NCBI GenBank assembly: GCA_038882655.1 | Contig: JAVZNT010000021.1 | Location: 1 to 13,999 of the forward strand | DNA: 13,999 nucleotides | DNA from: Candidatus Bathyarchaeia archaeon | Lineage (GTDB): Archaea; Thermoproteota; Bathyarchaeia; Bathyarchaeales; Bathycorpusculaceae | Reading direction: 5' to 3' | In this document: positions 2,228 to 13,999 of the stretch, in pieces | Layout of the letters: each line of letters opens with the position of its first letter | Numbering within the stretch: the first letter of the stretch is position 1 | Program-made: the position numbers and the translations under genes | The notes under the pieces: model-generated | What the model was told of the DNA's origin: nothing | Database searches by the model: none | Seen by the model: only the letters and a program-made list of their open reading frames with translations

Positions 2228-2322
2228 TTATTAATGCACCATGTCCCTTTTCATGTTTAAAATGAGGATGAGTTTCAAAAAGGCTTTATGAATTAAAAAT
2301 TCAAATAGAAACTAAACAGCAG

Positions 2323-3162
2323 ATGGTTTTAGAAATGGTTTTAACGCTTGAAGGAAAAAACCGCATAAAAAAGTTCAGAAAAATTGCGGCTGACTTTGCC
2401 TCCAAAATAGCAGCCCATGAAGGCGTGGCTGGCATCCTATTTCTAGGTGGTTTGGTGAGAGGTTTCGCCGACGAGTTTTCAGACTTGGATGTTGTAGTTC
2501 TCCTTAAAAATAGGGATGAAGACTTGAAGAGGAAACTAGTTAGGCTTTGGCGGGATGCAGAACGTCGCCACCGCATTGAAATAGATTTTGAAATTCATTT
2601 TATTGAGGATTTCAAAGCGTATGGCTGGGATGATGCGGATAGATGGGAGTTTTCAAAAGCCAAAGTAGTTTTCGACCCAGATGGAGAAGCGAGAAAAGTT
2701 TTGGAGGAGAAGCTGAGGGTTTCGGAAAATTTTTGGAAAAAGCGTATTGTGGTTTGCGCTGAATACTTAAAATGGTACTGCTGCCCTGTTAGGAAGGGTT
2801 CCGGCACAGTGGTAGAGGTTTGGATTAAGAGGGGTGATATAACAAGTGCCCATTACTGTCTAAACTATGGGGTTGAGTTGCTGATTAGGCTAATATTTGC
2901 TTTAAACAGGGAGTTTTTGCCAGCACCCAAATGGAGACTTTTCTACTCATATGGCCTGAAGTGGCTACCGAAAAATTATAGGAGGTTAATTAAGGAGGCT
3001 TTAGGAACTGGTGAGCTTTCGCTGGTGAATTTTGAGAAGCGGCTGCGGGCTTTGCAGGCTTTGGGGCAAGAGGTTTTCCGGAAAATTGAAGGGGATATGG
3101 GGCTTGACGTTGATTTAATATCCAAGTTGTATGTGGAGAAGGTTTTAAGACAGAGGCTTTAG
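2323..3162 (+). CDS. Pol-beta-superfamily nucleotidyltransferase with C-terminal helical (DUF4037-like) domain
   Basis: ILFLGGLVRGFADEFSDLDVVV matches hG[GS]..DxD; third acidic strand IEIDFEI; C-terminal LIFALNREFLPAPKW. The true start may be a few codons downstream. Confidence 0.82.
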   Translation: MVLEMVLTLEGKNRIKKFRKIAADFASKIAAHEGVAGILFLGGLVRGFADEFSDLDVVVLLKNRDEDLKRKLVRLWRDAERRHRIEIDFEIHFIEDFKAYGWDDADRWEFSKAKVVFDPDGEARKVLEEKLRVSENFWKKRIVVCAEYLKWYCCPVRKGSGTVVEVWIKRGDITSAHYCLNYGVELLIRLIFALNREFLPAPKWRLFYSYGLKWLPKNYRRLIKEALGTGELSLVNFEKRLRALQALGQEVFRKIEGDMGLDVDLISKLYVEKVLRQRL

Positions 3163-4600
3163 CCCAGAATAAGTAAACTTTTGTCTGCGCTAGGAAGCTT
3201 AGCCTTTTCAGCGCTTTTGCTAGCCCTTCACTGTTTAGCTTTTCTATTTTTTCTTTGAATTCCGTGTGGCTTGGGAAGGCTTCGCTTGTGGATACTATTC
3301 TTTTTCTGGGAATGGCGCCTTTCTCTGAAAGTTCGGTTAGGATTTTTATAACTTCGCTTTTGCCGATCTCGTTTAGCTTTTCTGTGTTGTATTTTTGGCT
3401 TTGGAGCATGTATGGCTTGAATCCTAGGGCTTCCAACTTTTCCATGGAATTTTGCAGGTGGGGGCTGGGCTTGCTTTCGGCTATCTTTCGCATTCCGGCC
3501 TTTTCGAAGAAGGGGTTGTATTTTGCCATGACGGCTAATGTTTCCACGTAGGGTGTTCCGGCTAATGGAAGTGTTTCTTTTACGAGTTTTGTTCCTAGGC
3601 CTATTGCGCGGTATTTTGGGTGTATTATTACTCGGGTTATTGTGCTAATTTCTTTTTGGAGTTGTTGGTGGCTGCCTTTCCAGACTTGGCTTCTTCCGAA
3701 CATTGTTGGTGGTGGATAGCTGTAGGCTATTACTCCGCAGGTTTCTTCTCCGCGTTTCATGGCGAAGATTTTTCTCGGCGGCGGCAGATAGCTTGAACGA
3801 TAGTGGAATTGGCTTAACGCTTTGTAGTCGGCTTTTGTGCCATGTTCTATGCGTATTTGGCGGGTTAGACTGCATTCTTTGGCTGGCGTATTTGGTTGGT
3901 AATGGATTGTTATTCCTTTGCCGAAACGTTTGTGGATGCGGACTGATGGGTTTAGGTCTTCTTGGAGGTCTGTGTGGGTTGTGGCGGCTATGACGGTTTT
4001 TCCCATGCGTCTTGCGGTTTTTTGGAGGTTGTATGCCACTATTTTTGCCGTGTCGCGGTCTAGGGTTGATGCGAATTCGTCTAGTATCCAGAATTGGGCT
4101 TGGCTTTCTATTAGTTTGGCTATTTTGTATCTGTATTTTTGTCCCTCACTTAGTTGCCCGTAGGTGCGGAGGAAAAGAAAAGCATCGTTTAAGCCTACTA
4201 GGCTTAGGAGTTCTAGGGCTTGTTGGAAGGTTTTGCCCACTGTTTCTATTATGGGCTTGTTGGGTGGGGGTTTTATTTGCCTAATGTTTATGCATGTGTA
4301 GGGCGTGTGTTTTCGGATGTCTTTTTCTAGGGCTTTTAGGAGGATGCTTTTTCCTGAGCCGCTTTCGCCTGTTATGTAGACGATGTCGCCTACGCCTATT
4401 TTTATTTCTGCGTTTTCGTATATTGTGAATTTTGTTGTTTGGTCTAAGCCGAGTCCGAAGGCTTCTGCTATGGTTTGGACTCTTTTTGTTGGTTTTGGTG
4501 GTGCTGTTTTGTAGGCTATGTTTATTATGAATTTGCCGGTTGCTTGGTCGTATCTGCGTTTTATGCTTTTGATTTGGAAAATTTCTTTTTGGCGTTTCAT
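2990..4600 (-). CDS. ABC-type ATPase fused to GNAT acetyltransferase (COG2401-like; GNAT resembles the Mom-like type)
   Basis: Walker A GESGSGKS, signature LSEGQ, Walker B FWILDEFASTLD, H-loop ATTH; then FHYRSS and GNAT motif A ITRVIIHPKYRAIGLGTKLV, plus NPFFEKAGM. Start placed at 4600 because of the ATGA overlap with the terL stop (track start 4615). The last ~57 codons overlap the NTase gene. Confidence 0.85.
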   Translation of the reverse strand: MKRQKEIFQIKSIKRRYDQATGKFIINIAYKTAPPKPTKRVQTIAEAFGLGLDQTTKFTIYENAEIKIGVGDIVYITGESGSGKSILLKALEKDIRKHTPYTCINIRQIKPPPNKPIIETVGKTFQQALELLSLVGLNDAFLFLRTYGQLSEGQKYRYKIAKLIESQAQFWILDEFASTLDRDTAKIVAYNLQKTARRMGKTVIAATTHTDLQEDLNPSVRIHKRFGKGITIHYQPNTPAKECSLTRQIRIEHGTKADYKALSQFHYRSSYLPPPRKIFAMKRGEETCGVIAYSYPPPTMFGRSQVWKGSHQQLQKEISTITRVIIHPKYRAIGLGTKLVKETLPLAGTPYVETLAVMAKYNPFFEKAGMRKIAESKPSPHLQNSMEKLEALGFKPYMLQSQKYNTEKLNEIGKSEVIKILTELSEKGAIPRKRIVSTSEAFPSHTEFKEKIEKLNSEGLAKALKRLSFLAQTKVYLFWAKASVLKPSPHTTWILNQRQAPYPLQFSGKPLAPKPAKPAAASQNSPAKAHQFLKPP

Positions 4601-5961
4601 TTTGGCACTATCCATAGGGCTGGTGTTGGCGGTTGGGTTTTTGCTGCGTATGCCGCCAGTGCTAGGCTCCAGAAGCGGTCGTCGTGAGTGCCTTCTGGGT
4701 GGGTTAGGCGTATTTTGCCTTCTTTTGTTAGTTGGTAGCGTTCTGTGTTTAGTTCTGCTATTAGTTCTGGGTCGTAGGGGATTTTTAGGCGCTTTTCAGT
4801 CATTAGTTGTTTTAGGTTGTTGGCAAGTTGCTCTTTTGTTTCTTGGGTGAATTTTATGCCTTCTATTTGGGTGTTCATGCCTATGTTTTTCATGTCTTCT
4901 ACTATGTATTCGCCTACTCCTGTCATGTCCACTAGGAGTTTTTGGGCGGTTTGCCATTTTTCGCATAGGGTTTTTGTATAACCTATTACTGTGGCGTATG
5001 GCGTTTTCAGTGGGAATCTGTGCATGTGCACAAGCCTTAGGGTGTTGTCTTGTTCTTGGTTTAGTACGGCTAATACGCTGGGGTCTTGGTGTTTTCCTAG
5101 GTCTAGTCCTGCGTAGAATCGTCCTTGGGCGGGTTTGTTGTAGGCTTGGTATTCTAGGGTTGGGTCTATGCAGGCTACTATTAGGGTTTGGGTTAGCCAT
5201 GTGTTTTGGTCTTCTGCCCATTCTGCTTGCATTTCGCGTTGCCATCGCCACTGGTCGTTTTCCAGTTGCCTCCTAATTTTTTGTAGGATTTCGCGTTTTA
5301 GTGGTCCGTTGGGTTCTGTGGCTTGTTGGTGGGTTACGTGGCTTTTCGCGTAGTCGCTGTAGGCTGGGTCGTGCCAGATCCGCCAGAAAATGCTGTCTGT
5401 GTGCCATGGTGTGCTGGTGCATATGAATTTTCCGTTTGTTGCGCTTAGTGTGAAGAGTATGGCGTCGTAGAGTTCTTTGTCGTTTGGTATAAAATTGAAT
5501 TCGTCTGCGTAGACGATATGCAATGTTGGTCCGCGGATTGTTTCTGGATTGTTCGGATAAGCCTCTATTATGCTTCCGTTTTTTAGGCGTACCGCCGTCT
5601 GCTGGGGTTTTTCGTATAAGCCCTTTGGGAGTTTTTTGAGAAGATTGTTTATTCGGCGGATGACGTGTTTTGTTTGGCGCCAGCTTGGTCCAACTATGCC
5701 TATCTGTGTGTTTGGGTTTGTTAGTGCGTAGTGTAGCAATAAGGCGGATACTGTTTGGGTTTTTCCGCTTTGGCGGCACCATCTGGCAGCAGTGAACTGG
5801 TTGGTTTGAAATTTGCGGATTAGGTCTGCTTGGTACTGGGTTGGCTGGAAGCCCAAGATTTGAGTGCAAAACTCTACTGGGTCTGCTGGTATGGGCGGCG
5901 TTAGGGCTTCAGCAAGCGCCTGTTCCAGTTGGCGGAGTTTTTGTTTTTGTCTTGGCTTCAT
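4597..5961 (-). CDS. terL: Phage-type terminase large subunit
   Basis: 454 aa; Q motif (FQPTQYQ), Walker A WCRQSGKT, Walker B VYADEFNF, coupling motif CTSTP, RNase-H-like nuclease residues AGLDLG..DPS, LVDMTGVG and HDDRFWSLALA. All motifs appear intact. Confidence 0.92.
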   Translation of the reverse strand: MKPRQKQKLRQLEQALAEALTPPIPADPVEFCTQILGFQPTQYQADLIRKFQTNQFTAARWCRQSGKTQTVSALLLHYALTNPNTQIGIVGPSWRQTKHVIRRINNLLKKLPKGLYEKPQQTAVRLKNGSIIEAYPNNPETIRGPTLHIVYADEFNFIPNDKELYDAILFTLSATNGKFICTSTPWHTDSIFWRIWHDPAYSDYAKSHVTHQQATEPNGPLKREILQKIRRQLENDQWRWQREMQAEWAEDQNTWLTQTLIVACIDPTLEYQAYNKPAQGRFYAGLDLGKHQDPSVLAVLNQEQDNTLRLVHMHRFPLKTPYATVIGYTKTLCEKWQTAQKLLVDMTGVGEYIVEDMKNIGMNTQIEGIKFTQETKEQLANNLKQLMTEKRLKIPYDPELIAELNTERYQLTKEGKIRLTHPEGTHDDRFWSLALAAYAAKTQPPTPALWIVPK

Positions 5962-6307
5962 CTATGAGCCTCTCGAGTTTTGCTAGGTCTTCGTCTATTT
6001 GGTGTTCGTCGAAGTGGGTGGCTACGCCGTTTATTATTTGGGCTATGTAGGCGGCTACGCGTGCCCATCTTTGCCTCTGGCTGATGGTTATTCTTTGGGG
6101 TTTGCCGTTTTCTGTTTGGTATTGGATTTCTCCTTTCGCCATTTCGGAAGCCATGTTGAAGAGTTCTTCGAGTTGTTTCATGGTTTTCAGTCTGATTTTC
6201 TGAGTATCTGTTTTCACCTCCTCTTTTAGTTCTGCCACTCGTCTCTTCAACATGGCTGTGCGGGAAGGCTTTGCGGTGTCAATTTTGCTAGGCTTGAAGG
6301 ACTGCAA
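5909..6307 (-). CDS. Helical charged protein immediately upstream of terL; terminase small subunit candidate
   Basis: 132 aa, looks alpha-helical/coiled-coil; overlaps the terL start by 53 bp; GAGGGGG SD-like run upstream of TTG. The TerS call rests on position and size only. Confidence 0.55.
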   Translation of the reverse strand: MQSFKPSKIDTAKPSRTAMLKRRVAELKEEVKTDTQKIRLKTMKQLEELFNMASEMAKGEIQYQTENGKPQRITISQRQRWARVAAYIAQIINGVATHFDEHQIDEDLAKLERLIDEAKTKTKTPPTGTGAC

Positions 6308-6322
6308 AATTGGATACCCCCT

Positions 6323-6553
6323 CTAGGTTTTTTGTGCTATGAGAATGCCGCTTACAGTGCCAGTCAAGCCCGTTATGGCGGCGAAGATTTCGCTGTTCCA
6401 CCTGCCAGTGAAAGCCAGATGGGCGACTTCTAGGGCGGATAGGCATATTGTCATGGCTAATGCGAATTTTACGCCTATGAGTAGCCTTGGGTCTGGTGGG
6501 ATTTCTTTATGCCTAACACGTCTCGTCAAAGCCTTCTTAATCCAGTCATTCAT
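6323..6553 (-). CDS. Small 2-TM membrane protein (holin-like topology)
   Basis: 76 aa, basic N-terminus (KKALTRRVRHK), two hydrophobic helices; ATGAATGA overlap with the upstream gene stop. Confidence 0.65.
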   Translation of the reverse strand: MNDWIKKALTRRVRHKEIPPDPRLLIGVKFALAMTICLSALEVAHLAFTGRWNSEIFAAITGLTGTVSGILIAQKT

Positions 6554-6938
6554 GGTTTTTAACCCTCTGTTGGTGGTGCTTCTTGCCCTTTATTGAGGCG
6601 CGTTTGCCGCCCACCAAGAAGCTGTTTAGAAGCTGTTTGGCCTCTTCAAGTGGAACATGAACCTTAGCGATTACATTGGTGTTGCTTGTCCAAGCCAGCG
6701 GCACAGCCGTATAATCAATGTCGTAGAAGCCATCAGCATAACGAAAACAGTTCTGAGCCAAAATAATATGCCTGTTCTTAGAGCCCAAAACGCCTAGGAA
6801 TATGCCCCAGCTGACAACTGGAACATCTATGCCGTTTAAGCCGCCGCTGAGACTCTTGCCTATGCTGGCGTCAAACCACTCAACACGAACCAAATCACCA
6901 AGACTTAACTCCTTAACCCGCTTAACAACCTCCCTCAT
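6546..6938 (-). CDS. Hypothetical protein, first gene of the terminase operon; resembles small phage VxVxWxDA beta-barrel proteins
   Basis: 130 aa; LVRVEWFDAS...VVSWGIFLG...IILAQ...TAVPLAW pattern; ATG preceded by GATGGTG SD and a TATA box about 40 bp upstream. Confidence 0.7.
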   Translation of the reverse strand: MREVVKRVKELSLGDLVRVEWFDASIGKSLSGGLNGIDVPVVSWGIFLGVLGSKNRHIILAQNCFRYADGFYDIDYTAVPLAWTSNTNVIAKVHVPLEEAKQLLNSFLVGGKRASIKGKKHHQQRVKNHE

Positions 6939-6950
6939 ACACCATCATCA

Positions 6951-6981
6951 AACAGAAAACGAACAGAAAACTAAATATAAA
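6951..6981 (-). promoter_or_regulatory. Putative archaeal promoter of the terminase operon with adjacent tandem repeat
   Basis: Minus strand reads TTTATATTTA (6981-6972) about 35-45 bp before the ATG at 6938; AACAGAAAAC occurs at 6951-6960 and 6962-6971 (11-bp period). Confidence 0.55.
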
Positions 6982-6983
6982 GA

Positions 6984-7045
6984 AAAACGAAATTTAGAAA
7001 TTCATAAATTTACCTGCCGATTCTCCTCAGATTAAATTTCGTTTT
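6984..7045. repeat. Perfect 13-bp inverted repeat with 36-bp spacer
   Basis: AAAACGAAATTTA (6984-6996) and TAAATTTCGTTTT (7033-7045). Confidence 0.8.
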
Positions 7046-7112
7046 AATTATTGATATCAAATAGAGCAAAACAAAATAAGCACTGCAATCTCACTACACT
7101 TGGTGAACCGTT

Positions 7113-8000
7113 TTGAATAAAAAGAATTGGCAAGTTTCTTTTATAATTAAGGGGTTAATTGTTCCTAATGAAGAAATAGCCTATGGAGACGTAATTATCA
7201 AACGTTGCGGCGAAAACGTCGATGAAGCACAACTTATCATGAAAGTTACAAAAGAAGAGGTCGAGGATAAAAAGACAATTCATACGGAATTTGAAAAGGA
7301 TGTTGCTAACATACTTCAGCTTTATGCGTTGGAAACCGGGCGGTTCGTTGCATTGCCTTCAGGTTATGCTGCCTCTCCCATCACAAATGAAACACCCTTT
7401 GGTAAAATTCCTCCAAAAGTGTTTACTATAAAAGTAGAATGGAGAGAAGACCCCAGAATTGTGAATGAATCATGTTCAGCTCTCAAATATGCCTTGAGAG
7501 CATATGAGTCTTTGAAAAGCGTTTTTGAGGATAGTTCGAAAGCCTTCATTCGTCATGGTATTAAATATTATTATATGGCCCTTGCAGAACATGATATCCA
7601 AAGGAAAATTATAGATTTGTTTATCGCCCTTGAAGCTCTATTTTCTGTAGGTGAAGAAGTCAGATTCAGAACTTCCTTAAGAATCTCATTGTTATTGAGC
7701 TTTTTAGGTCTAGACAGAAAAAAAGTATTTGACACGGTGTACGAGTTGTATTACAAACGGAGTAAGATAGTGCACGGTGTCGAAAATGTTGACGTATCTT
7801 GGGATGAAGTTAATAAATTAGAAAGATACTTACGTGATTGTCTCAGAGTTTTCCTATTTTTAGATAAGGGGAAAGACGAAATCCTGGATATGCTAGACGA
7901 TTGTCTTATTGAAGAAAGGATATGCTCAAAACTTAAGGAAACAATCATAACCGCCTATAAAAGATGGGAAGCCGAGAGAAGTAAAAAAGCGAAACCATAA
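7113..8000 (+). CDS. ApeA-like HEPN-domain protein (putative RNase, defence-associated)
   Basis: 295 aa; C-terminal LFIALEALF..E.RFR.SLR and YELYYKRSKIVHG (Rx4H HEPN motif); TTG start with GGTGA SD; AT-richer than flanks (16/60 G+C in 7561-7620). Confidence 0.78.
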   Translation: MNKKNWQVSFIIKGLIVPNEEIAYGDVIIKRCGENVDEAQLIMKVTKEEVEDKKTIHTEFEKDVANILQLYALETGRFVALPSGYAASPITNETPFGKIPPKVFTIKVEWREDPRIVNESCSALKYALRAYESLKSVFEDSSKAFIRHGIKYYYMALAEHDIQRKIIDLFIALEALFSVGEEVRFRTSLRISLLLSFLGLDRKKVFDTVYELYYKRSKIVHGVENVDVSWDEVNKLERYLRDCLRVFLFLDKGKDEILDMLDDCLIEERICSKLKETIITAYKRWEAERSKKAKP

Positions 8001-8112
8001 GGTATAGTTATATAATCCTGACATTGAATGTTATGGTGTAAGGGTGATAGACCTGTGAAAATAGCAATGTTGCTGAAAATCAACGCAAAGACTTTAGAAG
8101 TTGTTGAGTGTT

Positions 8113-8433
8113 TCACCAAGACTTTAATCGATCTCCGCTTAATTCTCTTGTTAATAAGCCAACTAAGTCACGGTGTCTCAATATTTCATGCATAATTTCG
8201 CCTTTTTGTGTCTTCTTAAACGCTTCTTTTCCATTGTGCGATATACGCTCAATAAGACCATTCTCTTCAAGATATTTTATCCATTTATCAGTTTGGGCTT
8301 CACTTCTTGCCAGTCTATAAATATCAAATCGCAATGCCACACCACGTTCCGACTGTTTCTCATTGATTACGTCCAAATACTTTTTTAATCTTTCAGATGC
8401 TCTTGAAGGCGGTGGATACCGCTTCCGCTTCAT
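8113..8433 (-). CDS. Winged-helix DNA-binding protein
   Basis: 106 aa; WIKYLEENGLIERISHNGKEAFKKTQKG matches the archaeal wHTH recognition helix and wing (L.E.GLI....Y..T.KG). Confidence 0.72.
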   Translation of the reverse strand: MKRKRYPPPSRASERLKKYLDVINEKQSERGVALRFDIYRLARSEAQTDKWIKYLEENGLIERISHNGKEAFKKTQKGEIMHEILRHRDLVGLLTRELSGDRLKSW

Positions 8434-8436
8434 CCT

Positions 8437-8778
8437 CTAATCCTCGATTGTTTTCTCCATCTCGATTAATTTTGAATATCGTTTCTTAAGCAGATCGTAC
8501 CATTGTAGCAGTTTTACGCCGAATATTACCAAAACAATGAAACCTATGGGCTCAACGACTACGCCAATGTAGTTAAGCATAGTTGTTTCGCCGGAAAATA
8601 ATGCTAATAAGTACATTGCAAAGTATGAAACACATAAAAACGCGACACTAAATGTTGTTATGGCGGAATAAAGGTGTACGGCGATGCTTCTTTTCGTGTC
8701 CTTAATTAACGCCTTCGCATCACGCCATAGTTCGTCATATATCTCCTTTAACTGTACTAATTCTTCTTCCTCATTCAT
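8437..8778 (-). CDS. Membrane protein (2 TM), unknown function
   Basis: 113 aa; charged helical ends around two TM segments; AGGTG SD before ATG; 3-bp gap to the wHTH gene. Confidence 0.75.
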   Translation of the reverse strand: MNEEEELVQLKEIYDELWRDAKALIKDTKRSIAVHLYSAITTFSVAFLCVSYFAMYLLALFSGETTMLNYIGVVVEPIGFIVLVIFGVKLLQWYDLLKKRYSKLIEMEKTIED

Positions 8779-8820
8779 AGTTACACCTTAAAATAGTTCA
8801 TCAAAGTCACTTTAGATATA

Positions 8821-8838
8821 TTTAGTTCTAGAACTAAA
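8821..8838. promoter_or_regulatory. Perfect 18-bp palindrome, putative operator in a divergent promoter region
   Basis: TTTAGTTCTAGAACTAAA is its own reverse complement; TTAGTTCTAG recurs at 8847-8856. Confidence 0.7.
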
Positions 8839-8928
8839 AATGTTGCTTAGTTCTAGTATGTGCAACGATGCTTGCTCTAGAAAATGCTCTAAATAATTAA
8901 AAATTTTAACTATACAACAGAGATCACA

Positions 8929-9780
8929 ATGAAAGTGAAGTTGATAAAAAGTAAGAGTTTATGCTTAACAATCATATTTTCAGTTGTAATGGCTCTTCTT
9001 CTTATTTATCATTTGCCGAACAATATCAAGGAACTATTGATTTTGCGCAGTGATTCATTGAATGTTTTTGCTCTTTTTACTTGTCATTTTGTTCATAAAG
9101 ATTTTGTCAACCACTTATTGCCTAACATGCTTGTTTTTCTTGGTGCTGCTTTACTTCTTTACGGCTTTCTTTCCATGTTAAATGGAAACAGATTTTTTTA
9201 TAAGCTGTTCGCTTTCAACTGTTTAGCAATGCCCTTTATTCTCTCGCTAGTTTGGGTTGGAGTATGCGCCTTCTGGAACGCGCACACGAGAAGCTATGGC
9301 TTTTCTGGAATAACATCCGCCTTTCTAGGCGCCTTAATCTTTGCTTATGTGCTTTTCCTTCACAACATTTTAAAAGTGAATACAAGTTATGCACATCTAT
9401 CCGTCATGTTCTTCATCGCTTTTCTATTTACCCTAACCTATTTCATACCCACGACAACAATCACAGTAATCGCAATAGCCGTACTAGCCACCTTCAGCGC
9501 ATTCACCTACAAAACTGTGAAAAGCATAGCCCCCCAAGCAAAAAACAAACTTCAAGAAAAAATCAAAAACCCAAAAATCGCAGTAATATTGACAAACATG
9601 CTTCTACCCTTCCTATACATGTTAATCTTCGCATTCAACCTAATTCTATTCCCTACTCAAATAGTTCAAGGAAACGTCATAGTAAACATCTTCATCCATT
9701 ACACGGGATTTGTGTTCGGAATAGGAGCAGCCCAGTTAATTTGGCAGCCCCAAAAAACCCCACCGCAAACAAAAACTTGA
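8929..9780 (+). CDS. Rhomboid-family intramembrane serine protease (divergent)
   Basis: 283 aa polytopic protein; FTCHFVH...NHLLPNM (H..H...N), YGFSG (GxSG, Ser126), IHYTGFVFG (HxxG, His257). Confidence 0.75.
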   Translation: MKVKLIKSKSLCLTIIFSVVMALLLIYHLPNNIKELLILRSDSLNVFALFTCHFVHKDFVNHLLPNMLVFLGAALLLYGFLSMLNGNRFFYKLFAFNCLAMPFILSLVWVGVCAFWNAHTRSYGFSGITSAFLGALIFAYVLFLHNILKVNTSYAHLSVMFFIAFLFTLTYFIPTTTITVIAIAVLATFSAFTYKTVKSIAPQAKNKLQEKIKNPKIAVILTNMLLPFLYMLIFAFNLILFPTQIVQGNVIVNIFIHYTGFVFGIGAAQLIWQPQKTPPQTKT

Positions 9781-9850
9781 TGAAACTTTCGGTGTGGACA
9801 AGGGCAAAATTAAGCCTTTCACGGAAGAAGACCGCGGCGGAAACCCCTAA
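9761..9850 (+). pseudogene. Possible C-terminal remnant of an archaeal VapB-like antitoxin
   Basis: Hand translation: HRKQKLDETFGVDKGKIKPFTEEDRGGNP*. No start codon in frame (TAA at 9737-9739). Resemblance to the FG.D.G.I..FTEEDR tails of archaeal antitoxins is from memory. Confidence 0.4.
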
Positions 9851-10074
9851 AGCATTTTTGTTAGGTCTTCGTAAACCCTATTTCTATACCCAACAAACAA
9901 GACGATTACTTTGGTGTTGGCTTTGTCTATTTCATATATGGCTTTGTAATCGCTTACCCTTAAGCTCCAGAAATCCGATGGTTTTAGGCGTTTTCCAGCC
10001 TTTTCCGGATTAGCCTCCAATGTTTCCTCAACAATGCGTTTCCTCACAGCTTCCCCTTCGCAAATTCTTCTCAT
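9847..10074 (-). pseudogene. relE: RelE/ParE-family toxin, N-terminally truncated
   Basis: NPEKAGKRLKPSDFWSLRVSDYKAIYEIDKANTKVIVLFVGYRNRVY is the RelE C-terminal half; the usual N-terminal strand and helix are missing and the first codons lie inside the upstream ORF. Confidence 0.7.
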
Positions 10075-10228
10075 ACATTAGGCGCTCTCTAACAAGCTCG
10101 ATAAGCGCCTCATCGCTTAAACGTGGATTCTGGGCTTTAACGCCTTCAGCACAAACCATGATGCAAACATCGCTCATGTCAACAGCGAAATTCACCCTCT
10201 GCTCTGGCTTCAACCTACGCCAATCCAA
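10028..10228 (-). CDS. Small helical hypothetical protein
   Basis: Likely TTG start at 10228 after a GGTGG SD: MDWRRLKPEQRVNFAVDMSDVCIMVCAEGVKAQNPRLSDEALIELVRERL. The track start at 10363 overlaps dapA and is unlikely. Confidence 0.55.
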   Translation of the reverse strand: MDWRRLKPEQRVNFAVDMSDVCIMVCAEGVKAQNPRLSDEALIELVRERLMYEKNLRRGSCEETHC

Positions 10229-10350
10229 AACCGCCAACCACCCAACATCTTTTAACCTAACATGCTTATCAGCTTTTAGCCACACCAAAAACTCACATTT
10301 TATAAGCGCAGAAAGCAAACCCTTACCTTCACCAGAAAGGGAATGGAAAC

Positions 10351-11259
10351 ATGCAAAAAACAAGGCTTGAAGGCATAATTGTGCCCCACATTACGCCTTT
10401 CACTGGAAAAGGCGAAATAGACTTGAAGGCACTACGCACATGCACGCGGTTCTGGATTGAAGGTGGCGTTGATGGGCTTATGCCTTGTGGCAGTAATGGC
10501 GAAGCCCCATATTTGGCTAGGGAGGAACGCCAAAAAATAATCGCCGCAGTCCTAGAAGAAGCCAAAAGTGGCATAACGGTTGTGGCTGGAACAGGCGCGC
10601 CAAGCACTTGGGAAACCATAAGCCTTACAAGAGACGCCGAAGACTTGGGCGTCGACGCCGCAGTGGTGGTCACGCCCTACTATTTTAGGCTTTCAAACCG
10701 CGAGTTAACAGCCCACTACAAAGCTGTTTTGGAGGCTGTTGACTTGCCCATAATCCTCTACAGTGTCCCAAAGTTTACTGGCTACGCTTTAGAACCAGCC
10801 GTAATTGCAGAGCTCGCCAAAGAATATTCGCATGTTGTCGGCGTAAAAGACAGCGGTGGAAACATATCCACAATAACAGAGACCATACGCCTAGTGGGCG
10901 AAAAAATAGCCGTTTTGGCTGGGACAGCCGACGTTGTACTGCCAACACTTATGCTGGGCGGGAAAGGCGCAGTAATAGCCGTAGCCAACGCCTACCCAAG
11001 GCTGTGTGCAAGCCTATACAAAGCCTACAAGCAAGGCGACATTGAAAAGGCGGTAAAACTGCAAAAGACAATAACCCGCATAAACGAAGTTCTTGTCAAG
11101 CGCTTCAACCAGCTTTCAGCCATAAAAGAAGCCATGCAAATGCTGAGATTGCCAGCAGGCTACCCGCGATCGCCAGCCCTACCACTGGACGAGGCGGAAA
11201 AAGCCGAGATAAAAAGCCTATTGGAAGCTGTCAAGGCGGAGGCTGAAGCTGAAGCCTAA
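10351..11259 (+). CDS. dapA: 4-hydroxy-tetrahydrodipicolinate synthase (DHDPS/DapA family)
   Basis: 302 aa; ITPF, GSNGE, VAGTG, VVTPYY, ILYSVPKFTG and Schiff-base lysine in GVKDS. Exact substrate within the DHDPS/NAL family is not certain. Confidence 0.88.
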   Translation: MQKTRLEGIIVPHITPFTGKGEIDLKALRTCTRFWIEGGVDGLMPCGSNGEAPYLAREERQKIIAAVLEEAKSGITVVAGTGAPSTWETISLTRDAEDLGVDAAVVVTPYYFRLSNRELTAHYKAVLEAVDLPIILYSVPKFTGYALEPAVIAELAKEYSHVVGVKDSGGNISTITETIRLVGEKIAVLAGTADVVLPTLMLGGKGAVIAVANAYPRLCASLYKAYKQGDIEKAVKLQKTITRINEVLVKRFNQLSAIKEAMQMLRLPAGYPRSPALPLDEAEKAEIKSLLEAVKAEAEAEA

Positions 11260-11434
11260 GCCTCTTTATTAGGGCTTTCACCCGCTGCTCGTCTTTTAGG
11301 AACTCTTCTATTATGGCGTTGGCAAGCTGATAGATGCGCAAATCGTTAAGCAGTGCCAACTTCCGAACCTCATGGTGCAAGTCCTCGCGAACCTCTATAA
11401 CTGTCCGCTTAAAATCCCTCGACAAGCCCTTCAA
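11231..11434 (-). CDS. Ribbon-helix-helix (CopG/Arc-like) DNA-binding protein
   Basis: KRTVIEV beta-strand, then REDLHHEVRKLALLND helix and IYQLANAIIEEFL helix; TTGA overlap with the hub gene stop. Confidence 0.75.
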   Translation of the reverse strand: MKGLSRDFKRTVIEVREDLHHEVRKLALLNDLRIYQLANAIIEEFLKDEQRVKALIKRLRLQLQPPP

Positions 11435-13053
11435 ACCCTCGCAACGCCTGCCTTATAGCGGCTTAAATGGTCTATTTTGCTTCTTAAAGCGTATAGGTAG
11501 TCGGCTAAAAGTGGGCTTTCCCTTCCAAGCTCAAGGGTTATTTCAAGCGTTTGGGTTTTGGCGTCCACGTGGTATTCAACGCTTTCTATGCGGAAGTATC
11601 CGCTTACACCTTCGTTGGACAGCTCAGCGTAGATTCTGTCGCCTGGCAAGATAGGCGTTGTGCCATAATCGAGGACTGTGCTGCGGATGGTTAAATGTTC
11701 TGTGGGATTTTTGTAATAGTCTAATAGGGCTTTGGCTCTTAACTGGCATTCGTTGTCGCTTTTCAGTTCCTCATCTGTTACGGATAGTTCGCGTAGGCCG
11801 TAGGCTGATTGGCTGTTAGCATCTTCCTGCATGGCACTGTAACGGCAGTCTGAAAAGTGTAGGTGGTCTAAGCGGAGAACTGGAGTGCAGCCTTCAGGGT
11901 GCCAAATGTGAAACTCTATGCCGCCTACCGGATTGTTCCAGTCGGCGCTGCCGACTTTTTCCCAAGTGGGCTGGTCTGTTCGCAATACGAGTTTACCCCA
12001 ACTGGCTTGGGGCGGCAGTAAAGGCTTAATGTCCAAGTCGAAGTGGTCGTTGGCGCTTTGCCAAAGGATACATTTGGCGGCTGTTGGCGAGCCGCTGCCG
12101 TATCTTGTCCAGTTAATCCAAACGTTAACCTGTTTAAAATTGCCCGGTCTGTTAAACTTGGTGCCGCTGGGCAAATTGCGATAAAGCTTTATTTCGCTGT
12201 CTGCGCTGCCGCCATAAGCGTAAACACAGAGGGAATCCGTGTATTTCTTTTGTCCATCCTCGCTTACATGGTTTGAATCTGTGGCTACTGTGCCGTTGGA
12301 AGTCCAACCGCTTGTGGATTCTGTCCACCCGTCCTCGTTGGAGTCTGAAGGCAGCTTCTTTTCAGCCGCTCCATAAACGTAAATCTTGTTTCTTATACGG
12401 CTAATGTCTTTTCGATATTCATACTCCTCAATAGCTTCGGAAAGGCTGACACTGCTTGTTTTGCTGTTCCGCCTGAAAAACTCGAATTTCCCGTCTGGAG
12501 CCACGCGGAAATCATAGCCTATAGTGCCGTAATAATCTGCGGAGTCCGCAATATAGCGTAGTATATCAAAGACTGGTGTGTTTTCATATTCAAGCTTAAC
12601 GTAAAGGGTGCTTGTGTTTTCAACAAGTTCTGTGCTGTCCCGCGTGTGGCTTAAACCCACATAATAGTCCAGTAGATGCTTGACTATGTCTTCGCCTTTC
12701 ATGTTTTCAAAAGTGCCAGTGAAAACGCGTCTGAATAGGCGTTCTCCCCAGCATCGCCCGCTAACCCGTAGGTAATGCTCCACCGGCGCGGATTCGTATT
12801 TGAGGCTTTCAATGCGGCAGGTGATTATCTGCGGAACATTAAAGCCTCTCCCAATGGAAATGGAGCCGTCCATCCCGACAGCCAGCGGAATAGAGCCGTT
12901 TGGGCTGTATTTCCCGTCCCAGTTCTGCAAAAGCAACTCGAAGCTGCTGACCTCTTTTGTGCAGCCCAAATGCACGCGGCACTCGATAACGTCGGCTTGG
13001 GGTATGCCATACTGCCCGAAGGCTACCGCCATCTTTGGAGTGTCAACGCTCAT
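11431..13053 (-). CDS. Tail tip / baseplate hub-like protein (gp27/Mu gp44/Tal-like) with internal carbohydrate-binding-like insert
   Basis: 540 aa; hub-like N-part (SSFELLL, YLRVSGRC, FENMKGEDIVKHLL, YDFRVAPDGKFEF, IRNKIYVYG) and C-part (SQSAYGLRE, RAKALL, ILPGDRI, FRIESVEY, ITLELG); directly after the tape-measure-like gene. Confidence 0.72.
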   Translation of the reverse strand: MSVDTPKMAVAFGQYGIPQADVIECRVHLGCTKEVSSFELLLQNWDGKYSPNGSIPLAVGMDGSISIGRGFNVPQIITCRIESLKYESAPVEHYLRVSGRCWGERLFRRVFTGTFENMKGEDIVKHLLDYYVGLSHTRDSTELVENTSTLYVKLEYENTPVFDILRYIADSADYYGTIGYDFRVAPDGKFEFFRRNSKTSSVSLSEAIEEYEYRKDISRIRNKIYVYGAAEKKLPSDSNEDGWTESTSGWTSNGTVATDSNHVSEDGQKKYTDSLCVYAYGGSADSEIKLYRNLPSGTKFNRPGNFKQVNVWINWTRYGSGSPTAAKCILWQSANDHFDLDIKPLLPPQASWGKLVLRTDQPTWEKVGSADWNNPVGGIEFHIWHPEGCTPVLRLDHLHFSDCRYSAMQEDANSQSAYGLRELSVTDEELKSDNECQLRAKALLDYYKNPTEHLTIRSTVLDYGTTPILPGDRIYAELSNEGVSGYFRIESVEYHVDAKTQTLEITLELGRESPLLADYLYALRSKIDHLSRYKAGVARV

Positions 13054-13054
13054 G

Positions 13055-13603
13055 CTATTCTACGCCTCGCCTGTAAAGCTCCTCCTCGCCGGCGCGGCGG
13101 ATGCTTCTCCCAGCAAAACCGGCGTAAAGTCCACCTGCAGCCTCGTTGTATTCTTTTACGGATTCTGCTGCGGAGCGCATTTGACTGGCGAAATAGGAAA
13201 CAGCCGCGGCAGCCCCGATAATGGCGGCTATTCCCACACCTGTTAAAGCCAAGAATGTGGCGAAGCTTATGTTTAGGGCGTTTTGGGCGGCGTTGGCTAT
13301 CCAGCAGGCAGCGGCGTAAACTTTCTGGGCTACGGCGGCGCCCCAGGAACTACGCATAAACATGCCAATTGTAGTGACAAGGTAAGTGAAGCTTGCTAGG
13401 GCTTTTGCCTGTTCACTGTTTAACATGCCGAAGGAGTGGGCTAAATGCACAACCGCTGAACCAGTGGCGCCCAAACCAGCCATAGCTGCGCCGAGGCTTT
13501 TAATCCGCACGCTTAAAGCTTCAGCGTCCATCTGGATTCTGGCAAACTCGTGGCTTGCACGGTTTACGGCACGAACTGTTATGGATATTTCACGGAAACT
13601 CAT
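13055..13603 (-). CDS. Short tape-measure-like protein
   Basis: 182 aa; N-terminal ISITVRAVNRAS..F motif and Ala/Gly-rich helices with AAACWIANAAQNALN and LTGVGIAAIIGAAAA; lies between gp10 and the hub gene; ATGA overlap upstream, 1-bp gap downstream. Confidence 0.65.
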   Translation of the reverse strand: MSFREISITVRAVNRASHEFARIQMDAEALSVRIKSLGAAMAGLGATGSAVVHLAHSFGMLNSEQAKALASFTYLVTTIGMFMRSSWGAAVAQKVYAAACWIANAAQNALNISFATFLALTGVGIAAIIGAAAAVSYFASQMRSAAESVKEYNEAAGGLYAGFAGRSIRRAGEEELYRRGVE

Positions 13604-13965
13604 AGCCCAGCCTCCGCTTTTGCTTTGTCAATGGCTTCAAGAATAACTTGTTCAAGGGTTGGCAGAAACTCTTGAAGGGCGGGGTTAAGGTAGGGGCGAG
13701 CTTGCATGTAGCGGGTGCCAAACTCCACGAACATAGCGTAGGAGGCTTCCGCGCCGATTTCGGCAACCCAACCCTGAACTTTAGCGTAAATTGTGCCTCT
13801 CAAATAGCCCGTCCTAGCTGGGGCTAGGGCTCTTGCGTATTCGCGGACCTCCGTAGCCCAACGCTCAAGCTGTTCGCGAACCTGCCTAAGCATAGCCTCA
13901 TCCAACCTTTGAAGTGCTTGCAAGACCTCTTCGGCATCCACTTCGATGTTTACTTCAACCGACAT
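13600..13965 (-). CDS. HK97 gp10-family tail-completion/neck protein
   Basis: 121 aa; ARALAPARTGYLRGTI, YAMFVEFGTRYMQARPYLNPA are the hallmark HK97-gp10 motifs. Confidence 0.92.
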   Translation of the reverse strand: MSVEVNIEVDAEEVLQALQRLDEAMLRQVREQLERWATEVREYARALAPARTGYLRGTIYAKVQGWVAEIGAEASYAMFVEFGTRYMQARPYLNPALQEFLPTLEQVILEAIDKAKAEAGL

Positions 13966-13999
13966 TTGCTTTCACGCTCCATCTTGGCTTTTTCCTCTT
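13950..13999 (-). CDS. 3' end of an upstream gene of the tail operon (partial)
   Basis: Frame from 13997 reads EEKAKMERESKCRLK*, with the stop at 13952-13950 overlapping the gp10 start. Confidence 0.45.
   Translation of the reverse strand, partial: EEKAKMERESKCRLK

What the first reader, a model, noticed from the sequence alone, without database searches (positions are those of the whole stretch)
2990..13999. Two separated, intact virion-gene modules embedded among housekeeping genes: candidate domesticated virus / archaeal gene transfer agent
Seen: a self-contained packaging operon (6938->2990) with its own TATA box and SD, and about 4.3 kb away the end of a tail operon (>13999->11231). A housekeeping dapA gene and unrelated cargo lie between them, and tldDE lies outside. 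All genes look intact and most are translationally coupled (ATGA/TTGA overlaps). No integrase, replication gene, portal or att repeat is visible. Established: in tailed viruses terL is normally followed by portal and precedes the head and tail genes; here it lies downstream of the tail genes. GTAs are host-maintained, often split over several loci, and lack replication and integration genes. Inference: this is a vertically inherited, dispersed particle-making system rather than a recent provirus.
Basis: partly seen in the sequence, partly recalled or inferred. Interest (0 to 1): 0.88.

Follow-up and report, generated by a model that had tools for sequence, protein, structure and literature searches.

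The report
Grounded tailed provirus with cargo insert
The two "separate" virus gene blocks are the two ends of one old, integrase-less tailed-virus insert in a hot-spring Bathyarchaeia chromosome, split by a swap-in cargo region; related species inherited it and selection kept it intact in some, while others deleted it, so it may still make particles but is not shown to be a gene transfer agent.

Summary
The genes are real and intact, but the window cuts the element. Directly beyond base 13999 lie tail tube, portal-like gene, HK97-type capsid, cement protein and a protease-like gene. In related copies (G004:C3, G010:C23, G039) the tail genes run straight into o130-o76-TerL-ABC/GNAT. So this is one element of about 22-23 kb with a 4.3 kb cargo hotspot inside it, not two dispersed modules.

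The "dapA" is an accessory DHDPS paralogue that is a pseudogene in two sister species. The tldDE pair is also an accessory paralogue.

The element sits at the same chromosomal site in 11 of 13 genomes of the genus. It is full-length in G000, G003 and G004; G007 is full-length as far as its contigs reach. G012 is damaged, G001 is partly seen, and G002, G006, G009, G010 and G011 hold remnants from at least 4 independent deletions.

Synonymous divergence matches the host genes, dN/dS is about 0.1, and the element trees match the host trees. I found no integrase, att repeat or tRNA target. A relative in G039 does carry an integrase.

Verdict: an old, vertically inherited, grounded provirus under purifying selection. 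GTA function is plausible but untested. This scan has already reported similar loci in other Bathyarchaeia genomes.

The parts
13600..13965 (-). HK97-gp10-like tail/neck component (121 aa). The operon continues upstream, beyond the window, in C3:64662-75827: o185, tail tube, o146, o465, a variable block, portal-like gene, MCP, cement, protease-like o401.
   Evidence: PF04883 35.2 bits. Upstream genes: Phage_tube_2 62.5 bits, Phage_capsid 29.1 bits, Phage_cement_2 50.6 bits. The portal-like gene scores only 20 bits for PF04860, below its cut-off, but PF04860 is precomputed on many 74-87% identical homologues and a 35% homologue follows TerL in L070.
13055..13603 (-). o182, conserved tail gene of unknown family, translationally coupled (ATGA) to the gp10-like gene
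   Evidence: No Pfam or PHROG hit. 84-93% identical in G003, G004, G007 and G012, dN/dS 0.09-0.20.
11431..13053 (-). Tail hub / Tal-like protein (540 aa), last structural gene
   Evidence: PF24032 YQBQ-like 46.1 bits; weak Prophage_tail hit; phrog_400 tail protein. 74-85% identical in the genus. Longer in relatives: frame of 805 aa in G039, 1129 aa in G010:C23.
11231..11434 (-). o67, small Arc/RHH-like protein. It overlaps the hub stop (TTGA) and is present only at the genus locus; it survives in remnants.
   Evidence: phrog_582 Arc-like repressor, E 4e-4, weak. Retained next to the DHDPS gene in G010 and G011 after the structural genes were deleted. No match in G004:C3, where the hub match and o130 are 36 nt apart.
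10351..11259 (+). DHDPS-family ("dapA") accessory paralogue, cargo inside the element
   Evidence: PF00701 269.7 bits. The window type (61% identity or more) occurs intact in only 10 of the 39 other genomes searched. It is a pseudogene in G009 and G011. A second copy, about 37% identical, lies elsewhere in most genomes. Absent from the G001 copy.
10020..10370 (+). o116, small gene upstream of the DHDPS gene, part of the conserved cargo
   Evidence: tblastn hits in G007, G010 and G011 beside the DHDPS gene. No Pfam hit.
6964..9882 (.). Strain-specific low-GC cargo (o295, wHTH 106 aa, o113, o283) in the hotspot between the tail and packaging genes
   Evidence: GC 0.36 against about 0.45-0.50 around it. 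No tblastn match in relatives. Relatives carry other cargo at this spot: DNA methylase, PIN, AbiEii/AbiEi. One contig of run X4 joins 6963 to 9883, laid at 90% likeness.
6939..7112 (.). Divergent intergenic region with a TATA-like box and SD-like motif for o130 and a perfect 13-nt inverted repeat (6984-6996 / 7033-7045)
   Evidence: Sequence read; inverted repeat I4. Promoter function is inferred, not tested.
6546..6938 (-). o130, first gene of the packaging block (possible small terminase or DNA-binding partner; inferred from position only)
   Evidence: No Pfam or PHROG hit. Always upstream of o76-TerL in relatives, including G039 and IMG/VR contigs. dN/dS 0.05-0.10.
6323..6553 (-). o76, small conserved gene of the packaging block
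   Evidence: 88-95% identical in the genus, 42-55% in distant copies.
5909..6307 (-). o132, mosaic gene with two alleles
   Evidence: 98-99% identical to G004 and G012 but 52-60% to G003, G007 and G001. This disagrees with the host tree.
4597..5961 (-). Large terminase, T4/Mu-gp28 type
   Evidence: Terminase_6N 63.3 bits, Terminase_6C 36.6 bits. 96-97% identical in G003, G004 and G007, 87-88% in G001. Cut to residues 1-258 in G012.
2990..4615 (-). ABC-type ATPase fused to a GNAT acetyltransferase, a core gene of this virus family. The real end is probably near codon 497-506.
   Evidence: ABC_tran 52.7 bits, Acetyltransf_1 21.1 bits. Follows TerL in G004:C3, G010:C23, G039 and L054, and follows the hub in L047. 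Stop codons in relatives.
1982..3162 (.). Left border zone: o81 (-), o91 (-), nucleotidyltransferase (+). o81 stays next to ABC/GNAT in all genus copies and remnants where that flank is assembled.
   Evidence: NTP_transf_2 25 bits. Synteny.
3..1915 (-). tldE/tldD accessory paralogue pair, flank; absent from the G001 copy of the locus
   Evidence: PmbA_TldD domains. G000 has 3 tldD-like matches, and the window type is patchy in the order. In G001, o81 abuts the orthologue of the gene left of tldE.

Best explanation
SHOWN
- The finding is the right-hand two thirds of ONE virus-derived element of about 22-23 kb. It runs from window 2990 to about window 25186, which is C3:53631-75827.
- Read on the minus strand, the order is: protease-like gene, cement, HK97-type capsid, portal-like gene, a variable block, o465, tail tube, gp10-like, hub, then a cargo hotspot, then o130, o76, o132, TerL and ABC/GNAT.
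- It belongs to a large family of small tailed (pro)viruses of Bathyarchaeia.
- One copy was already at this site before the genus species sampled here diverged, and it has no integrase. It has been inherited vertically since then.
- A hotspot between the hub and o130 collects cargo: a DHDPS paralogue plus changing defence and toxin-antitoxin genes.
- Where the element is still whole, its genes evolve under purifying selection as strong as on host genes.
- In other species it has been deleted repeatedly.

INFERRED
- The intact copies still build DNA-filled head-tail particles, driven by a T4/Mu-type (headful-class) terminase.
- Because the element cannot excise by any mechanism I could find, such particles would carry chromosomal DNA, which may include the element and its flanks. 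That would be transducing or GTA-like behaviour.
- Re-entry by homologous recombination would account for the mosaic patches.
- Whether selection acts for the host or for the element is open.
For: One element, not two:
- Structural genes continue past 13999.
- Hub and o130 are adjacent or separated by only a short gap in G004:C3, G010:C23, G039 and L051.

Same site in the genus:
- Left flank o81/tldDE, right flank R93-R202-PAS/GAF kinase, in G003, G004 and G012; G007 shows the left flank only. Remnants lie at the same site in G002, G006, G009, G010 and G011. G001 shares the left flank.

Co-divergence:
- G000 vs G004: structural genes, 16 genes, median dS 0.31; host flank, 20 genes, 0.40.
- G000 vs G003: 0.65 vs 0.55. 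G000 vs G012: 0.66 vs 0.54.
- Unlinked rpoB dS 0.54-0.69.
- The tail-module tree is (G001,((G003,G012),(G000,(G004,G007)))) with 100% SH-aLRT. It has the same sister pairs as the flank and rpoB trees.

Purifying selection:
- Median dN/dS is 0.10-0.12 for structural genes and 0.05-0.08 for packaging genes in the comparisons with G003, G004 and G012, against 0.08-0.09 for host genes.

No mobility genes found:
- No PF00589 hit near the element in G000, G003, G007, G012 or G001.
- No tRNA and no att-like repeat.

Viral ancestry:
- G039 has the same gene order plus a 386-aa integrase abutting a tRNA synthetase gene.
- TerL occurs in 29 of 40 relatives and portal in 21 of 40, with several copies in some genomes.
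- 40 IMG/VR loci are related.

Cargo hotspot.
Against: - Particle production, packaging and expression are untested.
- No tape-measure gene was recognised, and most tail genes have no family hit, so completeness of the virion set is not shown.
- The portal call rests on a Pfam hit below the cut-off plus evidence from homologues.
- Five of the 11 species with this locus deleted the structural module, and G012 has a broken TerL and a split gp10. Selection is therefore not universal.
- Packaging genes have about half the host dS (0.14-0.28), and gp10/o185 only 0.02-0.04 against G004 and G007. Three to four genes per comparison are replaced by alleles only 50-61% identical. So there is horizontal exchange, and inheritance is not purely vertical.
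- Many ORFs are unannotated, so an unrecognised recombinase or replication gene cannot be excluded.
- The host trees rest on two linked genes and on one unlinked gene only.
Confidence: 0.68

Rival explanations
1. It is a true gene transfer agent. The host keeps and controls the cluster, the particles carry random pieces of host DNA and not the cluster itself, and selection acts at host or population level.
For: - Fixed site, host-like dS, dN/dS about 0.1 and congruent trees.
- No integrase, replication gene or att repeat found.
- The TerL is of the Terminase_6N type. That this is a headful class is recalled knowledge; RcGTA is likewise derived from a headful packager (PMC7947584, passages read).
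- All-or-nothing pattern: either intact under selection or largely deleted.
Against: - At least 4 independent deletions of the structural module in the genus, and TerL destroyed in G012.
- The same family behaves like viruses elsewhere: multi-copy, different loci, an integrase in G039, pseudogenised copies.
- The element (22-24 kb) is about the size of the integrase-bearing G039 copy (about 24 kb), so nothing suggests a head too small for its own genes.
- There are no data on packaged DNA, regulation or release.
Confidence: 0.2
2. It is a conventional temperate virus that is still mobile. It uses an unrecognised recombinase, or one supplied in trans, and repeatedly targets the same site, so the shared position does not reflect common descent.
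For: - Mosaic alleles and patches of very low dS show exchange between species.
- The family is multi-copy and patchy.
- Many ORFs have no known function.
- Several integrases lie elsewhere in these genomes.
Against: - The same internal cargo junction (o67-DHDPS-o116) and the same border genes persist in intact copies and in differently deleted remnants. That fits one old insertion better than re-integration.
- The remnants are imprecise deletions, not clean excisions.
- Structural-gene dS equals host dS, and the tree matches the host.
- No att repeat was found.
Confidence: 0.08
3. It is a dead relic carried along passively. Its apparent conservation comes from occasional gene conversion by related live viruses.
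For: - G012 shows early decay: TerL fused to ABC/GNAT by a deletion, and gp10 split.
- Five species have only remnants.
- Allele replacements show incoming related DNA.
Against: - All structural and packaging genes are uninterrupted in G000, G003 and G004, and in G007 as far as its contigs reach, despite dS 0.3-0.7.
- dN/dS is 0.04-0.20 across about 3000-3700 structural codons per comparison.
- Wholesale refreshment would not leave dS equal to host dS and a host-like topology.
Confidence: 0.04

Closest known systems
Integrase-bearing provirus of the same family in genome G039 (same order, other family; C1 about 630.4-654.4 kb)
   Same: Most tail and all packaging genes are in the same order (o117, o465, o146, tube, o185, gp10, o182, hub, o130, o76, TerL, ABC/GNAT), at 31-56% identity. 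Same head genes (protease-like, cement, MCP, portal at 28-56%). Similar size, about 24 kb.
   Different: G039 has a 386-aa tyrosine integrase 4 kb after ABC/GNAT, directly beside a tRNA synthetase gene. It has no cargo between hub and o130, its portal is on the opposite strand, and it lacks the o79-o140 block.
Published Bathyarchaeia tailed viruses and proviruses: Fuxivirus and Kunpengvirus (PMC10848311, section 6 read) and BATPV1/2 and others (PMC11705971, passages read)
   Same: Head-tailed HK97-type viruses of Bathyarchaeia, some from hot springs, with small genomes (Fuxivirus 31,982 bp). Proviruses carrying defence genes and amino-acid-metabolism genes are described there.
   Different: Sequence relatedness could not be tested, because I had no sequences and the supplements are closed. 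Going by the gene numbers given in the paper, Fuxivirus lists TerL, portal, MCP, tube; here the order is protease, MCP, portal, tail, TerL. Kunpengvirus has an integrase, MCM and PolB, and none was found here. Those papers do not report a fixed, co-diverging locus in the parts I read.
Gene transfer agents of the RcGTA type (recalled knowledge, plus PMC7947584 passages and search-listing abstracts of PMC5026251 and PMC6821227)
   Same: Virus-derived head-tail and terminase genes in a chromosome without integrase or replication genes, inherited vertically under purifying selection, with a headful-class terminase.
   Different: No close sequence relationship was seen: in INPHARED the MCP had no match and the best TerL hits were 32% identical or less to Thermus and Meiothermus phages. 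I did not compare RcGTA sequences directly. Here there is one contiguous cluster rather than several loci. It is lost in about half of the genus. Size gives no hint of a capsid too small for the cluster. DNA content of particles is unknown.
IMG/VR viral contigs L046-L048 (TerL 70-71% identical)
   Same: Share the tail module (o117 to hub, 40-85% identical) and o130-o76-o132-TerL.
   Different: The tail and packaging blocks are transcribed divergently. The head module is of another type: Linocin_M18-like MCP, Phage_portal_3, DUF2213. In L047 ABC/GNAT follows the hub.

Membership tests
Tailed (HK97-type, Caudoviricetes-like) virus gene set | HK97-fold major capsid protein | tested here: met
   L001:9132-10085(-): PF05065 Phage_capsid, 29.1 bits against a cut-off of 24.2.
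Tailed (HK97-type, Caudoviricetes-like) virus gene set | Large terminase with ATPase and RNaseH-like nuclease domains | tested here: met
   Terminase_6N 63.3 bits and Terminase_6C 36.6 bits, both above their cut-offs.
Tailed (HK97-type, Caudoviricetes-like) virus gene set | Portal protein | tested here: inconclusive
   PF04860 scores 20 bits, below the cut-off of 39.1, and no PDB or PHROG hit. In favour: PF04860 is precomputed on many 74-87% identical homologues, and a 35% homologue directly follows TerL in L070.
Tailed (HK97-type, Caudoviricetes-like) virus gene set | Tail tube and hub; a tape measure for a long tail | tested here: inconclusive
   Tube: Phage_tube_2 62.5 bits. Hub: YQBQ-like 46.1 bits. 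No tape-measure-like gene was recognised by Pfam or PHROGs.
Mobile temperate provirus | Integrase (or other recombinase) within the element | tested here: not met
   No PF00589 hit on G000 contig C3. None near the orthologous element in G003, G007, G012 or G001. G004 has a 215-aa fragment beyond a host gene, with no meaningful BLASTP similarity to the G039 element integrase. Unannotated ORFs remain.
Mobile temperate provirus | att direct repeats or a tRNA target at the borders | tested here: not met
   The longest shared direct repeat between the border zones is 13 nt; shuffles gave a mean of 11.8 and a maximum of 16. No tRNA in the window, or in L001, L014 and L015.
Mobile temperate provirus | Replication or lysogeny module | tested here: not met
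   No replication-type domain among the ORFs scanned with Pfam. Only a weak Arc-like hit on o67 and a weak wHTH hit.
Gene transfer agent (functional class) | Vertical inheritance with the host lineage | tested here: met
   Same site in 11 of 13 genus genomes. dS similar to host genes. Congruent trees. Some horizontal patches exist.
Gene transfer agent (functional class) | Purifying selection on the structural genes | tested here: met
   Median dN/dS 0.10-0.12 over 12-16 structural genes per comparison with G003, G004 and G012, against 0.08-0.09 for host genes.
Gene transfer agent (functional class) | Maintained throughout the host clade | tested here: not met
   The structural module is deleted in G002, G006, G009, G010 and G011, by at least 4 events with different endpoints. 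TerL is truncated in G012.
Gene transfer agent (functional class) | Particles carry random host DNA in pieces too small to hold the cluster | not testable with these tools
   Only assembled contigs of public runs were available, with no virome or raw reads.
Gene transfer agent (functional class) | Production under host regulatory control | not testable with these tools
   A PAS/GAF histidine kinase gene is a conserved neighbour, but it also remains where the element is deleted. No link is shown.

The most novel reading that the evidence does not exclude
The intact copies are a working archaeal gene-transfer-agent-like system. A non-excising tailed-virus cluster fills heads from the chromosome by headful packaging. 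The DNA is delivered to related cells and enters by homologous recombination. This would explain the fixed site, the host-like divergence with recombination patches, the roughly constant length of 21-24 kb, and the strong purifying selection without an integrase. It would be the first genetically defined GTA-like system in Thermoproteota.
Probability: 0.22. Interest if true: 0.85.

Novelty: new member of a known kind. Interest (0 to 1): 0.5.

Why it matters
Tailed proviruses of Bathyarchaeia are already in print, and grounded or domesticated proviruses are a known class. What this locus adds is a clean natural series within one genus: intact copies under selection, one copy just starting to decay, and at least four independent deletions, all at one orthologous site. 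There is also an integrase-bearing relative for comparison, and an internal hotspot that swaps defence and metabolic cargo.

This makes the locus a good place to ask what keeps a virus gene set alive in an archaeal chromosome for a synonymous divergence of 0.3-0.7. It is also a good place to test by particle sequencing whether archaea outside the methanogens have GTA-like DNA exchange.

The locus also corrects three likely annotation errors: "dapA" and "tldDE" read as housekeeping genes, and an over-long ABC/GNAT frame.

Tried and rejected
- Two independent modules or a multi-locus GTA: rejected. The blocks are contiguous in related copies, and the head genes lie just outside the window.
- Misassembly: rejected. 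The same order occurs in G003, G004, G007 and G012.
- Integrase at the borders: none found. The G004 215-aa fragment lies beyond a host gene and shows no meaningful similarity to the G039 integrase.
- att repeats: nothing above chance.
- Repeats around the low-GC cargo: nothing convincing.
- CRISPR arrays in G000, to look for spacers against the element: my k-mer script found none in a genome that is 74% complete, so no spacer test was possible.
- PHROGs on 20 proteins: only weak or uninformative hits.
- PADLOC on the G000 cargo and neighbouring genes (NTase, o81, o91, ABC/GNAT): no convincing system.
- PDB sequence search with portal, hub and o465: no meaningful hits.
- ESM Atlas: leads only. 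o465 resembles a viral family with (alpha/alpha)6 glycosidase-like neighbours. o401 resembles Peptidase_S78/DUF2213 prohead proteases. BLASTP of o401 against the L047 DUF2213 protein was weak.
- Public runs: 15 holders in 5 studies, all hot-springs metagenomes, kept only as Logan contigs. No RNA holder is listed; two runs labelled metatranscriptomic are marked "probably DNA". Depth from contigs cannot rank genes, and uncovered stretches prove nothing.
- INPHARED: the MCP had no match, and TerL was 32% identical or less.
- GC enrichment as a GTA sign: dropped, because the integrase-bearing G039 copy is also GC-richer than its flanks.
- Not used: structure prediction, complex prediction and the 1.84-billion-protein search. 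They would not have decided between the readings.
- Paper supplements are closed. I therefore could not check whether this locus or its relatives are listed in the provirus tables of PMC10848311, PMC11705971 or PMC13573593. I saw the last paper only as a search listing.
- Claim about print: my searches listed no paper describing a co-diverging, integrase-less tailed-virus locus or a GTA in Bathyarchaeia. That holds only for those three searches.

Full report
WHAT IS IN THE WINDOW

The window is G000:C3:50642-64640 of a 1.02 Mb, 28-contig genome that is 74% complete. Source names on homologous proteins (Candidatus Bathyarchaeia / Bathyarchaeota) and the public runs that hold the stretch (all labelled hot springs metagenome) place it in a hot-spring Bathyarchaeon.

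Minus-strand genes:
- tldE/tldD, 3-1915.
- o81 and o91.
- ABC-ATPase/GNAT fusion, 2990-4615.
- TerL, 4597-5961 (Terminase_6N/6C).
- o132, o76 and o130, up to 6938.
- o67 (weak Arc-like hit), 11231-11434.
- A 540-aa YQBQ/Prophage_tail-like hub, 11431-13053.
- o182.
- An HK97-gp10-like gene, 13600-13965.

Plus-strand genes:
- A nucleotidyltransferase, 2323-3162.
- Two orphan genes in a low-GC stretch (GC 0.36).
- o116.
- A DHDPS-family gene, 10351-11259.

THE ELEMENT IS CUT BY THE WINDOW EDGE

Reading on in C3 (locus L001), the same minus-strand operon continues upstream. In the direction of transcription it reads:
- o401, protease-like. The Atlas lead is Peptidase_S78/DUF2213.
- A cement protein (PF09956, 50.6 bits).
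- An HK97-type capsid protein (PF05065, 29.1 bits).
- Two small genes.
- A 407-aa portal-like protein.
- A block of small or variable genes, o79 to o140.
- o117 and o465.
- o146.
- A tail tube (PF18906, 62.5 bits).
- o185, and then the gp10-like gene of the window.

The portal call is not firm by itself: PF04860 scores 20 bits against a cut-off of 39.1. It is supported by PF04860 being precomputed on many 74-87% identical homologues, and by a 35% identical homologue placed right after TerL in IMG/VR locus L070. Beyond o401 come host-type genes: an SDR, an S51 peptidase, and then a PAS/GAF histidine kinase.

ONE ELEMENT, NOT TWO MODULES

- In a second copy in G004 (contig C3), the hub match is 36 nt from o130-o76-o132-TerL-ABC/GNAT.
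- G010:C23 and IMG/VR locus L051 have the same order with only about 1.2-2.2 kb between the hub match and the packaging genes.
- In the complete genome G039, the hub frame overlaps o130 by 16 nt.

So the ancestral layout is head, tail, packaging in one run. The 4292-nt gap in the window is an insertion hotspot inside the element. The content of the hotspot differs between species:
- G000: four orphan genes at GC 0.36.
- G004, G007 and G012: an N6/N4 DNA methylase with two partner genes.
- G004 (and, by an ORF of the same position and size, G007): a PIN toxin.
- G003 and G007: AbiEii (AbiEi also in G003).
- G001: an AbiEi-like gene and no DHDPS gene.
- One contig from another hot-spring run joins window 6963 to 9883, skipping the G000-specific part. 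It was laid at 90% likeness, so it may come from a related strain.

THE "HOUSEKEEPING" GENES ARE ACCESSORY

The window-type DHDPS gene (61% identity or more) was found intact in 10 of the 39 other genomes searched. It is a pseudogene with stops in G009 and G011. Most genomes carry a second copy, about 37% identical, elsewhere. G000 has three tldD-like matches, and the window type is restricted to part of the genus and three other genomes. In G001 the orthologous locus has neither tldDE nor the nucleotidyltransferase.

SAME SITE THROUGHOUT THE GENUS

The flanks are shared. On the left are o81 and tldDE. On the right are R93, R202 and the kinase gene. The state of each of the 13 genus genomes is as follows.
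- Full length with all genes uninterrupted: G000, G003 and G004. G007 is full-length as far as its contigs reach: C14 holds part of o465 through the tail, cargo and packaging genes to tldDE, and C11 holds the portal.
- Damaged: G012. TerL residues 1-258 are fused to ABC/GNAT residue 137 onward, gp10 is in two pieces, and o249, o95 and o118 were not found.
- Partly seen: G001. Tail and packaging genes are at the same left flank. Its contig starts inside the tube gene, and no portal match was found in a genome that is 87% complete.
- Remnants only: G002, G006, G009, G010 and G011.
- Not decided: G005 (portal 92% identical, no TerL hit, 79% complete) and G008 (62% complete; it holds a different copy elsewhere).

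The deletions of the structural module have different endpoints in G010, G011, G009 and the pair G002/G006. That makes at least four events. TerL was removed with three further different endpoints, in G012, G009 and G010/G011. On the flank-gene and rpoB trees the deleted genomes are interspersed among the intact ones.

AGE AND SELECTION

I computed Nei-Gojobori estimates from tblastn-anchored codon alignments, G000 against each relative. Genes under 70% identity were left out of the medians. These were 3 element genes for G004, 4 for G003, 1 for G007, 3 for G001 and none for G012. One or two host paralogues per comparison were also left out.

| Comparison | Host flank genes | Structural genes | Packaging genes |
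|---|---|---|---|
| G004 | 20 genes, dS 0.40, dN/dS 0.09 | 16 genes, dS 0.31, dN/dS 0.12 | 3 genes, dS 0.14, dN/dS 0.07 |
| G003 | 9 genes, dS 0.55, dN/dS 0.09 | 14 genes, dS 0.65, dN/dS 0.11 | 2 genes, dS 0.28 |
| G012 | 21 genes, dS 0.54, dN/dS 0.08 | 12 genes, dS 0.66, dN/dS 0.10 | not used |
| G001 | 1 gene, dS 1.48 | 2 genes, dS 0.95 | 3 genes, dS 0.69 |

The unlinked rpoB gene gives dS 0.54-0.69 against G003, G004, G007 and G012, and 0.77 against G001. The tail-module tree is (G001,((G003,G012),(G000,(G004,G007)))) with 100% SH-aLRT on every branch inside the genus clade. The packaging tree is compatible with it. The flank and rpoB trees show the same sister pairs. All of these trees are quick searches with SH-aLRT support only.

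The element has therefore diverged together with its hosts, under purifying selection as strong as on host genes.

RESULTS AGAINST PURE VERTICAL DESCENT

- gp10 and o185 have dS of only 0.02-0.04 against G004 and G007.
- TerL and o132 have dS of 0.09-0.14 against G004.
- o132 has two alleles whose distribution (G000, G004, G012 against G003, G007) cuts across the host tree.
- o140, o249 and o118 are only 50-61% identical between otherwise near-identical clusters.

So related DNA does enter these loci and recombine.

NO MOBILITY FUNCTIONS FOUND, BUT A VIRAL FAMILY BACKGROUND

- No PF00589 integrase lies on G000 contig C3, or near the element in G003, G007, G012 or G001.
- G004 has a 215-aa integrase fragment beyond a conserved host gene. 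It has no meaningful BLASTP similarity to the G039 element integrase.
- There is no tRNA or att-like repeat.
- No replication domain appeared in any Pfam scan.
- Across the order the family behaves like viruses:
  - TerL occurs in 29 of 40 genomes and portal in 21 of 40.
  - Some genomes have up to three copies, at different loci and at graded identity, and some copies are broken.
  - 1299 TerL and 1162 portal homologues scored E <= 0.001 among the 8000 candidates scored in each search. Many are on chromosomal-size contigs.
  - 40 related IMG/VR loci were found. Some have a swapped head module: Linocin_M18-type MCP, Phage_portal_3, DUF2213.
- The G039 copy ends with a 386-aa integrase beside a class I tRNA synthetase gene.
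- The genus copy, at 21-24 kb from ABC/GNAT to o401, is about as long as the G039 copy at about 24 kb.

INTERPRETATION

Shown:
- One old, integrase-less copy of a small tailed Bathyarchaeia virus.
- It is fixed at one site and has an internal cargo hotspot.
- It co-diverges with its hosts under purifying selection.
- It has been lost repeatedly.

Inferred:
- The intact copies still assemble DNA-filled particles.
- Lacking excision, these particles would carry chromosomal DNA.
- Homologous recombination on re-entry would explain the mosaic patches.

This is GTA-like in logic. The defining GTA property, what DNA the particles carry, is untested. The repeated losses and the virus-like behaviour of the wider family speak against a firmly host-owned system. 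I put a true GTA at about 0.2.

RELATION TO WHAT IS KNOWN

Tailed Bathyarchaeia viruses and proviruses with defence and metabolic cargo are published (PMC10848311, section 6 read; PMC11705971, abstract and passages read). I could not test sequence membership in those groups. Deposited phage and virus genomes hold nothing close. Within this scan, similar integrase-less, vertically inherited Bathyarchaeia virus loci have already been reported on other genomes, and one first-stage note describes what looks like the same architecture in another genome. Those are unchecked AI notes. My conclusions rest on the calls cited above.

LIMITS

- Paper supplements were closed.
- Only contigs, not reads, of public runs were available.
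- Most tail genes remain without a family, and no tape measure was recognised.

Noticed in passing
window 2990-3162 (and L015, L017, L018): The ABC/GNAT frame of G000 runs about 45 codons past the point where G003, G004 and G007 have stop codons. This proline- and lysine-rich tail overlaps the 3' end of the convergent nucleotidyltransferase gene, so it is probably a read-through extension and not conserved protein.
   Followed up: partly
window 6984-6996 / 7033-7045: A perfect 13-nt inverted repeat, 36 nt apart, lies in the divergent intergenic region between o130 and the first cargo gene, next to the TATA-like box. It is a candidate operator.
   Followed up: no
L001:12089-13603 (C3:76088-77602): G000 alone has a short-chain dehydrogenase and an S51 peptidase gene inserted between the first element gene (o401) and the conserved right flank. 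G004 and G012 lack them. So the element's outer border is also an insertion spot.
   Followed up: partly
L001:15506-19426: A 1306-aa sensor histidine kinase with multiple PAS and GAF domains is the conserved right-hand neighbour in every genus genome examined where that flank is assembled, including those that deleted the virus genes.
   Followed up: no
L017:12629-13994 (G003): The window-type tldD of G003 is split into two frames (residues 3-182 and 179-457). This is a frameshift or an assembly error in an otherwise conserved gene.
   Followed up: no
L091 (G008:C41) vs L090 (G000:C2): The rpoB of G008 is 100% identical in protein and has dS 0.02 to G000, although the two are listed as different species representatives. 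G008 (62% complete) shows a different element copy (TerL 56%) and none of the window's locus.
   Followed up: no
L086:7964-14257 (G039): Directly beside the portal gene of the G039 provirus lie two very low-GC (0.29) giant genes: a PLD-helicase (ResIII/Helicase_C) and an Eco57I/MmeI-type methylase-specificity protein. This is a defence island at the provirus edge.
   Followed up: no
L047 and L046 (IMG/VR): The closest IMG/VR relatives keep the tail and packaging genes but carry an unrelated head module: an encapsulin/Linocin_M18-like capsid, a Phage_portal_3 portal with a C-terminal HTH, and DUF2213. Whole head modules are exchanged in this virus family.
   Followed up: partly
L001:2447-3844 (o465): A conserved 465-aa virion-module protein resembles (alpha/alpha)6-barrel glycoside hydrolases or lyases: a marginal C5-epimerase Pfam hit and Atlas leads. 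It may be a particle-borne enzyme that cuts cell-envelope glycans.
   Followed up: partly
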